A DNA stretch of 64,000 nucleotides from Octopus vulgaris (taxonomy: Eukaryota). Below, piece by piece: positions 36,139-64,000 of this stretch (the stretch's first letter is position 1; every line of letters starts with the position of its first letter). A program made the position numbers and the translations under genes. Below the pieces are notes generated by a model. It did no database searches. It was given only the letters and a program-made list of their open reading frames with translations, and had not been told where the DNA came from. The stretch lies in the NCBI GenBank assembly GCA_951406725.2, contig OX597833.1, forward strand, positions 71,610,001-71,674,000, given 5' to 3'.

Positions 36139-37464
36139 TAATCTGAAGCAACCAGAAAAGACGAACAATTTTGACAAATTTGTGGTACTTACTCAATTAG
36201 CTTCCTATATATATATATATATATATATATATATATATATATACACATACATATATACATGCACACACACATGTACACAAGTTTATTTTTGTTATGAGGG
36301 AGTTTAAGGTATGTAAATATTGTTGTTAATATTCTTGTTGATGTCATCCTTCTAACCATTTATTGACGAATTATCTTGCCTATATTCTTCTCCCTGTCTC
36401 TCTCTTTCTCTCACATATATATATACTTATATATATATATATATATATATATATACATATATATACATATATATATAAATGATATCTCACTTTGTTGCTA
36501 TTCGTTTCACACGTAGCACAAGAAACTCTGAATAGCAACAATGTGAATTATCAACTTCATATGAATAAATAAACTCTGAGTACACATATTGTGTATTTAT
36601 TCCCCAGTTTCTGCATTAAAGTATGTGTGTGTGTGTGTGTGTGTGTGTGTGTGTGTGTGTGTGTGTTTGTGATGCATATTTGAGTCATCTTTGCTTTTGG
36701 AATAAACTTTGTTTTATGGTTTGTAAATTTGCTTTCAAAGTTTTGTTAAACAAGTCCGGCCTCTGTTTTTCTCTCTGTCTGTTTGTGTGTGTGAATGTTT
36801 GTATAATTGTGGAGGTAGGTGAAGCCTTGTTTGTGTTCCTTCTATTTGAACCTGGTGAGGCAAATTCTTTTGTGGGTGTATGAAGTGGGATGCTGGGTTT
36901 ATTGCAGAGTTGACGGAAGCAACATTAATCTTCACTGTATCTAGTTGCGTGTTTCTAATCCTAGATTAACTTTTCAAAGAAAAAGAGATTTCGTAATTTT
37001 TCTATATTTGGACAATTATATTTTGGGTTTTCTTCCACCCTTTGTGTGTGTGTGTGTGTGTGTGTGTTGGCAAGGCATTTAAGTTTAATTGCACTTAGCT
37101 TCGTTACTGATATTTTTCTATGAATCTGATTTTGATAGATTTTAACTTCTATTTCTAGCTGGTCAAGTGACCACATAGAGGCTCCATCATTGGCTTGTGA
37201 CTAGAATTGTCCTGTACCGGTGGAGGTGGTGGTGAATATTTTTGTTGTATCTATTGTCATTTAACCCCAGGCCAGATCTAACTGAACAGACACATAGTCA
37301 GTCATTCCAACCATGACCATCCTTTACTTTTTATCTAGCATTAAACGTCTTGGACTATTTTTGTTTCTTTGTTGTTTTTGTAGGATGGTTTTGGTATAAT
37401 TTGAGGGAGATTTGGCTGCTATTTTGAGAAATCTATTCAATGGCTCTTATACTTCTAGATACAA

Positions 37465-37805
37465 GTTACATATATTTGTTATAAAGTGAATCTTGTTACA
37501 GTGTGATACAAAGGGAATTCTGTTACAGTCTGTTACAAAATGAATGTTTTTAAGGTTTGTTACAATGTATTATATAGGATGAAGTCTTGTTACAATCTGT
37601 TTCAAGGTGAGTTTTGTTACAATGTGTTACACGTGGTGAATATATCTGTATCTTCCACAGGGTGAATCTGGTTCCATTTAGAGTGAATCTTGTTACAATG
37701 TGTCACAATGTGTTACATGGTGAATCTCTTTATTTTCTGTTAGAGGATGTCCCTTGTTACAAGGGGAAACATGCTATGGTCTGTTACAAGCTGAATCTTG
37801 TTACT
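37465..37805. repeat. Degenerate tandem repeat with TGTTACA / GTGAATCT cores
   Basis: More than 10 TGTTAC(A) motifs at roughly 10-30 bp spacing. Confidence 0.7.
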
Positions 37806-40800
37806 TAATATCAAGCTCTCCTTCATCGTTGCTATTACATTTGATATTCTAAAATGATTGAGTCTACAGAAATGGCACAGCGCCAGACTAAATGCTTTGC
37901 AGTATTTAGTTTCACACTGTTATTTACTCAGTCCATCTCCTGGTTGAACTTCTCCATTTGGCCCTTTGCATGCCTTTAGCAGTGTCCTCCTCGGTCACAA
38001 GCATATAGGCCAAATCTGACAATGATTTCCACACCTCACTTGTAAAAAAAAAATCATTGGGGCTACTTTTCCTCCTCAGACATTTAAATAAAAATAGAAA
38101 AAAAAATGAAGTTTGAATATTTATGGAGTTGACATTTGTTTGCCATTCTTGCAAAGCCTATAAAATAAAGTACCAGTTGCATACTGGGGAGAGCTGGTTC
38201 TATTAACTCTCACTTTCCTCTCTGTAGAAATGTTTATTGTTGAGTGAAGACAAGACATTTTGTGTGGAACGTTTTGTATTTGAAAGTGTTTTGCTGGGTT
38301 TGTTGAATTTGTGGCTGACTTTTGTTTGCATAAAACCTGTCTGGTTGGTCATGGTTAGCTTGACCTAACAACTAAGCTAATGTGTGTTAGTACAATGCAG
38401 CCAGCCAACTGTGTAAATTATATCAATGCCTTTTTATGACTCAGCAATGCTTTCTTGTTTAAATCACCATGTCAACAAACGTGACTGAAAATGGGTGTTA
38501 AATATTATTATTGTTATTATTACAACATTCCCTGTACGGAATTGAGTTTGAACATTGCTTTTTGTTGATGAATTTCTAAGAATTGTGCTGCTGTGCATGC
38601 ATGAGTGGATGTTTTAGTGAAGATGTCCAATTTCCAACATCTTGCATTCCTTGAGAACATTGCTCAGAGCAAAAGCTTGAAGATAGTTTTAACTTTGTAG
38701 CAAAACCTCTAAGCTTTGGTTGATACTAAGAAGCTTGATTGTGGTAACCAACATTTTGTTTGGGACTTCCCCATCCCCTGCAGTGAGTGGGGGGGACTCA
38801 ATACTTAAATCTGGTCTCGACAGAGAAGACCCCCAAGTAAGATCAAATATGAGCAGAACATGACAAGCAGCAAAGCCTCCAAAATCTTGATTAAAATGCA
38901 AATTATGCATACGATTAAGCGGGAGATATCATTAGCAGAAAGACTAATGTTAATTTAATCTGATCTTTGGTCAGTAAGCGTCAGTTCTCCAGAAATGTTT
39001 CGGCTTTCTTGTCAGTCTGCTTACAAGAACAAAAGCTAGGTTGCTTCTATTCCTTTAATCCTTGAACAAAATCCGTTTGTTTGTCAGATTGTTAGAAACA
39101 TAATGGAGAAGCTATATTTCTGTCTTTGGTGCCAGATCATAGTGCTATAGTTTGGTTATCTCTGAGTGTGCTTATGGTAATAAGGTTTTTCCTTTACAAA
39201 CAAACATATATATATATATTCAGATGAATATGGTACTTAAGTTAAAGGCACCAGAATTTTGTATGGTATTATCCATATAAATCAAATGGGGTGATTATAA
39301 TCAAAATAAGTAACAAGGATATCCAATGTACATGAAGTAGCATGAAACAATTGTACTACTCTACCTTGGATATCCTTGTTGCTTATTTTGATTATATATA
39401 TATATATATAAAGACATTAGTATCTAAATTCTTAAATTAACTGAATACCAAATTTTTCCTTCAATCTATTTTTTGAATTTCTTTTCAGTTGAATTGTAAA
39501 AATTTCTATTCCAGTTTTAGTAGAACAAAATTCAAACAATAATTGGTTTATATCCATGACCATTCTCAGACTGTCTACCATACACCCTTCTGTCTTCCTC
39601 TTCTTCAACAGCATACAAGATTACACACACTTTCATTCAGTTCCAATTGTATTGGCACTAAAAGCAATGTCTTCATTGCAGAGAAAGCATTATTGACTTT
39701 GGTATTTGTGGATTTTTTTTTTTCTGAAGATTTGTTTCTTTGGTAAGATTTCTGAGAATCTGTTAAAACCGATATTGTTGCTTCTGAATAGTCTCCCCAC
39801 CCCTTTCTTTCACCATTTAAAGACACACGTTGCACTGTTAGTGACTTCTTCACTCCAGTAATATTTCTTTAAATAGTTGTTTGGTTGAATGAATGAAGAG
39901 CCTTCTTCAGACATCTCAAACTTGGTCGTTTATATTCTACAAAGATAGTCTTTGATAAATTTTACAATTTTAACATAAACAACTAAATATGAAATAGCTT
40001 GTGTTTTAAGCAGCCAGACTAAATGAATACAGATGAAACAATAATTTCTTAATTGAAAAAATATGATTTAAAATGTGAAGAGTGGTGAGGTAATATTTTT
40101 TGTAAAAAAAAAAACCTGCTTCTTTTGGTATATAAAAAGTTATATTTTTCCATAAAAGTAAATAAAATGATGAAAAACTTACAAACTTGTATTTTCTTAT
40201 TATTTTAAAATGTTTTCTGTGCTTTTTAATAATTTATTAGTGCGAGATGCACTTTTGAAATGTTCAAAATTTAATTTAGATCTTTCAGAATTTTATCAAA
40301 AACCTTTTAAGTAAATTATATTCCAAACATCAGCTTAATAATGAAAATAGGTTTTTTTTTCACTCAATCTTTTCAAATTCTTGATTATTTTAAAAATTGA
40401 TTAGAATTGTGTAAATGGTGTATTTAAATTGAAATATGGTAATAAAAGGATTTTAAGCAGATAGAACTGAACTGAAGAAAGAACAAGATATCATTGTTAC
40501 AGAGCTGACTTGATGCCAACATCTGGACAATAATGAGAATGGACAGGAGAGGAAGAAGTGGATTAAAATTGCCATGGAAAGTACAAGAGTTTCAGGGAGA
40601 TCAAAGAATATTAGGGATGACATAACTAAGCTAAAGAATGTAGGCCCTTGATGTTGTGACGAGACAAGGTCGAACAAATTGAGATTGATAGAATACTGGA
40701 GTCAATGTAATTAACTTGTCCCCCTCCCCTCAAAATTGTTGGCCTTTTGCCTAATTAGGAAGAGTTATTAACATAAAACACTGATCCTTACAAAAGGAGA

Positions 40801-63563: not shown

Positions 63564-63658
63564 AGGTTAACAGTAACTCTGAAGTTTTGGTTTCCTCACC
63601 TTTGTCAGACAGTCTGACAGAGGTGAGGAAACCAAAACTTCAAAGTTACTGTTAACCT
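63564..63658. repeat. 95-bp near-perfect palindrome containing a decayed hammerhead-like motif
   Basis: 47-bp arms around A63611, with 2 mismatches. Confidence 0.9.
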
Positions 63659-64000
63659 CTCCTTTGTAAAAATTTAACAAACATTTACTCAATTATAAAA
63701 TATTAAACAATTCTTCAGTTTACTGTTAAATGGTTTTTATATATCTCTTGACATAAAAACACACATTATATATATATATATATATATATATATATATATA
63801 TATATACAAATTGAGGTAGGGGTTGTAAATGCAACCCTCCATGGGATAACATATATCCAATATACTGCTAGTAAAGCACCCAACAAAGTTAATACATAAA
63901 TGTTAAGGATTGCAATGCAATCAATTCATTGCTACCCCACTAGCTAAGCAAACAGGGCAACATTCCCCCTGATTGTGAGGCTAGCCCATTGCAGGGTGAC

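What the first reader, a model, noticed from the sequence alone, without database searches (positions are those of the whole stretch)
36481..63770. A class of short palindromic hammerhead-bearing elements that home to (TA)n microsatellites
Seen: at least seven short inserts of unrelated primary sequence (36481, 39220, 42873, 56110, 60786, 61241, 63550) abut (TA)n tracts. Each shows all or part of the type I HHR architecture: CUGANGA, stem II, GAAA, a short or palindromic stem III, then NUH. Six also have long inverted arms. Established: minimal HHRs with palindromic stem III act as dimers and occur in Penelope pLTRs and metazoan retrozymes. Inference: a dense, diverse population of non-autonomous ribozyme retroelements or PLE end fragments, roughly one per 4 kb here, with a TA-repeat target preference. 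The fold-back may arise at the ribozyme during reverse transcription. I am not aware of a description of this for octopus at this density, but could not check.
Basis: partly seen in the sequence, partly recalled or inferred. Interest (0 to 1): 0.85.

Follow-up and report, generated by a model that had tools for sequence, protein, structure and literature searches.

The report
Penelope stubs and one retrozyme
The seven short inserts beside TA microsatellites are real: four are the short ends of Penelope-like jumping genes, two more likely are, and one is a likely retrozyme, all known kinds of element that carry hammerhead RNA motifs predicted to self-cut, so the finding is mostly ordinary, although the stubs begin at preferred positions that may mark where transcription starts.

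Summary
The inserts are real but are not one new class. Each belongs to a different repeat family of this likely octopus genome. Families at 61242, 43045 and 39212 are 3' ends of Hydra-clade Penelope-like elements (PLEs); 61242 has a full 727-aa RT-endonuclease ORF. 56105 is the end of an old Neptune-like PLE. 60786 comes from a 504-nt non-coding tandem unit, a likely retrozyme. 36478 and 63546 are old and unlinked. Only 60900-60946 is an intact hammerhead; six relatives' families have intact cores. TA targeting is strong (99 of 104 arm ends, background 1.5%). TA targeting, inverted arms, tails and pLTR hammerheads are all published, including an octopus Hydra element. Density is about one per 9-10 kb, not 4. 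Less ordinary: 5' ends pile up 40-49 nt before the cleavage site in one family and at an initiator-like site in another, and none of 104 lies at the cleavage site. Stubs are probably run-off copies of the mRNA leader. The scan found such stubs before on this and other genomes.

The parts
36478..36597 (+). Family A: old stub, 3' half of a hammerhead with a mutated palindromic stem III, short inverted arm (about 36480-36508 against 36522-36553); likely a Hydra-type PLE end by resemblance only
   Evidence: no ORF link
39212..39396 (.). Family B: head-to-head stub of a Hydra-type PLE; the window copy keeps only the 3' catalytic box, stem III and stem I 3' strand; the family core has a stem II insert of about 58 nt
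   Evidence: 1122 exact matches; core; linker and endonuclease remnants upstream in L341; two fixed 3' ends
42873..43007 (+). Not a hammerhead element: fragment of an unrelated GC-rich repeat between two TA tracts
43045..43362 (+). Family C: stub of a second Hydra-type PLE with a 46-nt inverted arm; 5' catalytic box lost by truncation inside the long stem II
   Evidence: ORF pieces in L124 are 38.6% identical over 415 aa to the family F protein
56105..56298 (+). Family D: decayed 3' stub of an old Neptune-like PLE with a minimal hammerhead; no inverted arm
   Evidence: long copies with Neptune-like protein remnants upstream in 5 of 7
60786..61203 (+). Family E: partial copy of a roughly 500-nt non-coding tandem unit (likely retrozyme) with a 57-nt inverted arm
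60894..60952 (+). Intact type I hammerhead (6-bp stem I, 4-bp stem II, near-palindromic stem III, predicted cleavage after 60946)
61242..61454 (.). Family F: head-to-head stub of a young autonomous Hydra PLE; long arm with tail on the minus strand, short arm on the plus strand; core carries U4-to-C and a broken stem II
63546..63766 (+). Family G: old head-to-head stub, decayed hammerhead; relatives have an intact core with palindromic stem III; likely Hydra-type by resemblance

Best explanation
The inserts are short 3'-terminal (pseudo-LTR plus tail) copies of several Penelope-like retrotransposon families, plus one likely retrozyme, that were likely pasted into existing TA microsatellites by Penelope reverse transcriptase-endonuclease proteins and carry hammerhead motifs predicted to cut as dimers. 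Shown here: family identity, links to ORFs for four families, two fixed 3' ends per family, TA at both outer ends, insertion inside older TA tracts, and an uncut hammerhead in the copied template. Inferred from published PLE biochemistry: the endonuclease nicks both strands of the TA tract, reverse transcription starts inside the RNA at the two tail sites, and the two short cDNAs join head to head by microhomology, giving a palindrome with one long and one short arm. Inferred and untested: many cDNAs are short because priming occurs on the upstream pseudo-LTR of the mRNA and runs off at the transcription start just 5' of the hammerhead (about 45%); stalling or fold-back at the hammerhead's extended stem I is the alternative for family F. 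Most stubs are dead: six of the seven window copies lack an intact core.
For: Family F: 3263 and 8267 exact motif matches with 0 in the reversed control; 3.36-kb tandem units with a 727-aa ORF that has RWK, DKT, YRDD, CxCX5C, CxxC and CxH and lacks the internal CCHH, as defined for Hydra. In 104 arms from 86 of the first 100 listed matches: 3' ends at about +42 (49) or +107 to +110 (50); 99 of 104 followed by TA against 1.5% background; 37 of 39 head-to-head pairs have one long and one short end; 28 of 39 junctions overlap by 1-12 nt; 0 of 104 5' ends within 3 nt of the cleavage site. No TA at the internal tandem junction, and three independent stubs split a SINE at its internal TA tract, so TA is the target. 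B and C link to Hydra-type ORFs, D to Neptune-like remnants. E is a 504-nt tandem unit whose longest ATG frame is 45 aa. Frangieh 2024: two internal RT starts define the tail, both strands are cut and extended, hammerhead cleavage is not needed.
Against: A and G have no ORF link; A has only 3 weak relatives. D's endonuclease matches are weak (E 3e-5 to 2e-3) and 2 of 7 long copies gave none. The F protein has no Pfam or PDB match, so clade placement rests on motifs and a by-eye comparison with published sequences, not on a tree. Family B's 5' ends are broadly spread, without a sharp pile-up. Self-cleavage, dimer formation, transcription starts and RNA circles were not tested.
Confidence: 0.85

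Rival explanations
1. All or most inserts are self-propagating non-autonomous ribozyme elements (retrozymes or SINE-like units) that are transcribed, self-cleaved and re-inserted independently of full-length PLEs.
For: True in outline for family E. Family D copies are mostly a discrete unit of about 200 nt with a sharp 5' boundary (20 of 22 within 23 nt). Short copies far outnumber long ones in F.
Against: B, C, D and F continue upstream into PLE sequence. 16 of 39 F palindromes are 96-100% identical to a full-length copy, so stubs track the autonomous master. No short-period tandem of D among 30 pattern-selected loci. No F end at the cleavage site.
Confidence: 0.1
2. The palindromes form by fold-back of one cDNA at the hammerhead: reverse transcriptase stalls at the folded ribozyme, the cDNA self-primes, and the endonuclease trims the second arm at the fixed short end.
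For: F 5' ends peak at 40-49 nt before the cleavage site (0.55 per 10 nt against at most 0.05 beyond -60), where an extended stem I ends (read by eye). The two arms agree at subfamily-diagnostic sites: 7 mismatches in about 142 comparisons once the junction position +37 is set aside, against 47% for random arm pairs.
Against: D's boundary lies about 80 nt from a hammerhead with a 4-5 bp stem I, and both flanks are pyrimidine-rich, so no helix reaches it (by eye). Unpaired F arms also end there (4 at -40 to -47). Self-priming on the stem I complement predicts second arms starting near +16, which is rare. Agreement of arms also fits twin priming on one RNA.
Confidence: 0.3
3. The motifs are chance matches in an AT-rich, microsatellite-rich genome.
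For: Six of seven window copies fail both descriptors; 25% of random positions have a TA tract within 300 nt.
Against: Intact cores in family members; 10 intact motifs in 400 kb against 2, 0, 0, 0, 0 in five shuffles; direct TA abutment 99 of 104 against 1.5%. Only insert A remains open to this reading.
Confidence: 0.02

Closest known systems
Hydra clade of C-terminal-endonuclease Penelope-like elements, including Hydra-1_Obim of Octopus bimaculoides (Craig et al. 2021, PMC8557442; passages, section 11 and supplement passages read)
   Same: Protein motifs, canonical hammerhead in the 3' end, (TA)n insertion preference, inverted 5'-truncated copy with a tail on one end, host group.
   Different: Families B, C and F are not Hydra-1_Obim (different hammerhead); F is 3.36 kb with a 1.2-kb 3' UTR against generally under 3 kb; tails are about 70 nt (F) and 100 nt (B) against the 30-40 bp described; B and C have stem II inserts of 50-60 nt.
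Minimal and palindromic-helix-III PLE hammerheads (Cervera and De la Pena 2014, PMC4209133; parts 1-2 of 4 read)
   Same: Thousands of mostly single motifs per genome in several unrelated families, some as close opposite-strand pairs, read as truncated PLEs; family D has the unpaired base before stem II.
   Different: Octopus not mentioned in the parts read; the estimate here (about 70,000 intact motifs, 34,000-129,000) is above their 2,000-9,000 per genome.
Metazoan non-LTR retrozymes (Cervera and De la Pena 2020, PMC7229834, passages; Li, Clavereau and Pollet 2026, 10.64898/2026.07.22.740005, part 1 of 5 and passages)
   Same: Family E: non-coding head-to-tail unit with one type I hammerhead per unit, low GC.
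   Different: Unit of about 500 nt against about 300; seen here as a dimer and partial or inverted copies in TA tracts with PLE-like paired 3' ends; RNA not shown.
Poseidon PLE of Anolis in vitro (Frangieh et al. 2024, PMC11167929; parts 1-2 of 4 read) and inverted pLTR plus tail in Adineta (Arkhipova et al. 2013, PMC3846280; passages)
   Same: Two RT start sites bounding a tail, both strands extended, uncut RNA as template; head-to-head inverted junctions.
   Different: Other clades; no pile-up of 5' ends is described in the parts read.

Membership tests
Hydra-clade PLE (family F) | Single ORF, RT followed by C-terminal GIY-YIG-type endonuclease | tested here: met
   727-aa ORF with YRDD and a C-terminal GVVY...YTG region; no Pfam hit; one homologue carries PF01541
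Hydra-clade PLE (family F) | RWK and DKT motifs, CxCX5C linker, CxxC and CxH near the end, no internal CCHH | tested here: met
   Read from the translation against the definition; several copies have CxF in place of CxC
Hydra-clade PLE (family F) | Hammerhead in pLTR, tandem and inverted pLTRs, tail, (TA)n target | tested here: met
Hydra-clade PLE (family F) | Placement in the Hydra branch of an RT tree | not tested
   Reference proteins were only read by eye in the supplement
Hydra-clade PLE (families B, C) | Hydra-type ORF upstream of the stub | tested here: met
   C: L124, broken ORF with DKT and YRDD. B: linker and endonuclease remnants only, RT not seen
Hydra-clade PLE (families A, G) | Hydra-type ORF upstream of the stub | tested here: inconclusive
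   No protein match in the flanks fetched; 3' ends resemble F and the published Hydra-2_Amil end by eye
Neptune-like PLE (family D) | RT plus endonuclease with zinc-finger linker and CCHH upstream of the pLTR | tested here: inconclusive
   Same-strand matches to a local Neptune-like protein in 5 of 7 long copies, three of them weak; the label Neptune-like for that protein is my reading of its motifs
Non-LTR retrozyme (family E) | Head-to-tail non-coding units with a type I hammerhead in at least two consecutive units | tested here: met
   L136: two hammerheads 504 nt apart, longest ATG frame 45 aa; one stem III differs by a base; only one full dimer was seen
Non-LTR retrozyme (family E) | Self-cleavage and circular monomeric RNA | not testable with these tools
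   No raw RNA reads were offered (searched with family F only)
Type I hammerhead ribozyme | Both catalytic boxes, three stems and NUH in order | tested here: met
   Met by 1 of 7 window copies and by relatives of B, C, D, F, G; not shown for A
Type I hammerhead ribozyme | Covariation within families and dimer folding | not tested
   Stems differ in sequence between families while pairing is kept (by eye); no formal count or co-fold was run
Naiad PLE | N-terminal endonuclease and no canonical hammerhead | tested here: not met
   B, C and F have the endonuclease just upstream of the 3' UTR and complete cores

The most novel reading that the evidence does not exclude
The hundreds of thousands of hammerhead stubs are not random truncations but complete copies of the mRNA leader: PLE reverse transcriptase primes at the tail sites of the upstream pseudo-LTR and runs off at the transcription start, so stub 5' ends map each family's promoter, and twin priming of this short segment mass-produces perfect palindromes. 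This would explain why most animal PLE hammerheads occur as single short motifs and why octopus may hold about 70,000 intact ones.
Probability: 0.4. Interest if true: 0.55.

Novelty: new member of a known kind. Interest (0 to 1): 0.3.

Why it matters
As a class it adds little: TA-targeting, hammerhead-bearing PLE ends with inverted arms are published, also for an octopus. What could matter is quantitative. This genome holds a young, intact Hydra family with thousands of insertions, which gives large numbers for the unsolved PLE insertion mechanism (one long and one short end in 37 of 39 pairs, no end at the cleavage site, clustered 5' ends) and a candidate enzyme for an in vitro test. The stub load (about one per 10 kb) is also a large source of perfect hairpins in transcripts; any effect on RNA editing was not examined.

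Tried and rejected
Rfam scan of the window: only microRNA-like matches to microsatellites and hairpins among the 150 of 168 rows shown. Pfam and PDB sequence searches with the F protein: none. Expression: no RNA holder listed for the F stretch; all runs are contigs guessed to be RNA; four laid runs cover the ORF in pieces but cannot show starts, strand or level, and no intron joint in the pLTR was listed, so this is no evidence either way. A strict pattern for G found 0 and a looser one 2 matches; no ORF link for G or A. 42873-43007 as a hammerhead element: rejected. Family D as a free non-autonomous unit with nothing upstream: rejected after long copies were found. Naiad origin of the long-stem hammerheads: rejected. 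Two unrelated templates for the two arms: rejected as the rule, though transcripts of one master cannot be told apart. Circular fold of the E unit (-111.4 against -91.1 +/- 5.5 kcal/mol, 30 mononucleotide shuffles) is a weak control and is not relied on. Dimer co-folding and formal covariation counts were not carried out and remain open. Literature: searches for octopus plus hammerhead ribozyme, Penelope plus pLTR, solo and transcription start and Penelope plus initiator gave no paper on octopus stub density or on clustered stub 5' ends; the main text of a 2026 Octopus vulgaris repeat annotation has no 'hammerhead' or 'ribozyme' (PMC13282606, passages). The library lacks most subscription papers, and supplements of the 2026 preprint could not be seen.
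Full report
Setting. The window is G000:C20:71610001-71674000 in a 2.8-Gb assembly. The window is 38% GC with many TA tracts, many of them internal to SINE-like repeats.

Observation. The seven inserts exist beside TA tracts. A strict type I hammerhead descriptor finds one site, 60900-60946, and none in 40 block shuffles; allowing one core mismatch gives the same one site against a shuffle mean of 0.45. 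A relaxed descriptor agrees. So six window copies are fragments or decayed. Inverted arms are clear in five, short in one (36478) and absent in one (56105). The stretch 42873-43007 belongs to another repeat; the stub there begins at 43045.

Family F (61242-61454). Two motifs match 3263 and 8267 times, with none in the reversed control. Matches recur 3.35-3.37 kb apart, and the units hold a 727-aa ORF with RWK, DKT, YRDD, a CxCX5C linker, terminal CxxC and CxH, and no internal CCHH. These are the defining marks of the Hydra clade, almost all of whose families insert into (TA)n and carry hammerheads (Craig 2021). That paper lists Hydra-1_Obim from Octopus bimaculoides with a (TA)n preference and a hammerhead; F is a different family. 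The protein has 1074 homologues among the candidates scored, the best 120 at 43-58% identity and nearly all unnamed.

Anatomy of F insertions. I fetched 86 of the first 100 listed matches, in genome order on contig 1; the last 11 and three long arms already held in other loci were left out, and duplicate loci were dropped. This gave 104 arms. Their 3' ends fall at two places, about +42 (49 arms; the true end is near +37, alignments run on into the TA) and +107 to +110 (50 arms) from the cleavage site. 99 of 104 are followed by TA within 6 nt, against 1.5% of window positions. Of 39 head-to-head pairs, 37 have one long and one short end and 28 overlap by 1-12 nt at the junction. This is the inverted pLTR with a tail described by Craig 2021 and Arkhipova 2013, and it matches the two internal RT starts and two-strand extension shown in vitro for an anole PLE. 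TA is the target and not part of the template: the internal tandem junction has none, and three independent stubs (one F, two D) sit between the two halves of a SINE that normally has an internal TA tract.

5' ends. Among 97 F arms that cover the search motif, 68 end 10-59 nt before the cleavage site. The rate of ending peaks at 0.55 per 10 nt at -40 to -49 and is at most 0.05 beyond -60; adding the three omitted long arms would lower the peak to about 0.52. None of 104 ends within 3 nt of the cleavage site, so the template was not cut by the ribozyme. The arms of a pair agree at subfamily-diagnostic sites (7 mismatches in about 142 comparisons without position +37, against 47% for random pairs and 1.2% at other sites), so they come from one RNA or one master. 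In family D, 22 of 30 pattern-selected copies aligned to a long copy; 20 begin within 23 nt of one boundary about 80 nt before the core, and the mode lies on a hexamer that fits the Drosophila-type initiator consensus (recalled, not from a call). Penelope's promoter, with an initiator, lies in the pLTR (Schostak 2008, PMC2377424, passages). I infer that priming on the upstream pLTR and run-off at the start of the mRNA makes many stubs. Against this, family B's 5' ends are spread widely, and F's peak also coincides with the end of an extended stem I and a 4-nt palindrome.

Other families. C (43045): relatives show the full core with a long stem II; the window copy is cut inside it; a long copy holds a broken ORF 38.6% identical to F over 415 aa. 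B (39212): 1122 exact matches, full core in relatives, 2 kb of shared upstream sequence with Hydra-type linker and endonuclease remnants, 3' ends near +41 and +140, TA after 29 of 39 arms. D (56105): minimal hammerhead, 392 exact matches to an intact motif; long copies share up to 1.5 kb upstream and 5 of 7 match a local Neptune-like protein on the same strand. E (60786): the tail continues directly into the sequence upstream of the hammerhead, and one locus holds two hammerheads 504 nt apart with no ATG frame over 45 aa, which meets the sequence definition of a non-LTR retrozyme; it shows the same paired 3' ends in TA, so PLE proteins likely move it. G (63546): old family, 72-82% identity, intact core in relatives, no ORF link. 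A (36478): three weak relatives, unresolved.

Density. A library of 17 family ends finds exactly these 7 in the window, one per 9 kb, and 40 hits in 40 stretches of 10 kb chosen at round coordinates; 5 of the 40 are the library's own sources, a few are two arms of one insertion, and 26 of 40 have TA within 25 nt. That is about one per 10 kb, roughly 250,000 in the genome as a lower bound. Intact motifs number 10 in 400 kb against 2, 0, 0, 0, 0 in shuffles, about 70,000 genome-wide (34,000-129,000); 7 of 10 have TA within 300 nt against 25% (p = 0.004).

Comparison and verdict. Cervera and De la Pena 2014 already reported thousands of mostly single hammerheads per animal genome, in unrelated families, some as opposite-strand pairs, and read them as truncated PLEs; their monomers did not cleave and dimers cleaved weakly. 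The finding is therefore a set of new members of known kinds. Earlier notes of this scan reached similar readings on this and other genomes; I looked at them after forming my own. The part I did not find in print is the clustering of stub 5' ends and the genome-wide load. Interest 0.3.

Noticed in passing
window 79-615: Remnant matching a Neptune-like PLE protein (26% over 186 aa, E 1e-9).
   Followed up: no
window 31618-32106 (+), 35659-36138 (+), 50102-51007 (-): Reading frames for related multi-pass membrane proteins, probably two paralogous host genes, the first in two exons; no Pfam match above cut-off.
   Followed up: partly
L354-L378 (G000, e.g. C3:86386389-86389919): A very young Neptune-like PLE family (14,921 candidates, 150 scored at 97-100% amino-acid identity) that also ends in (TA)n; its 3' end appears by eye to carry a U3-A8 variant hammerhead.
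   Followed up: partly
window 42927-42965: A degenerate piece resembling the missing part of the family C inverted arm lies inside the unrelated repeat 100 bp upstream, while the arm itself lacks it; possibly an assembly mosaic or a local rearrangement.
   Followed up: no
window 61460-61846: The long TA array after family F contains repeated 8-10 nt pieces like the short end of F, suggesting slippage of the junction.
   Followed up: no
L185 (G000:C25:43035144-43035340): 98% identical copy of the window's family D stub including its upstream flank but not the downstream flank, so a duplication rather than a new insertion.
   Followed up: no
L425, L426, L430, L450 and families B, C: Several unrelated families have hammerheads with stem II inserts of 30-60 nt, which short-loop descriptors would miss.
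   Followed up: partly
window 26539-26942, 29101-29512, 32347-32762, 56336-56713, 57205-57603: An abundant SINE-like repeat with an internal TA tract; these tracts serve as PLE targets elsewhere in the genome.
   Followed up: partly
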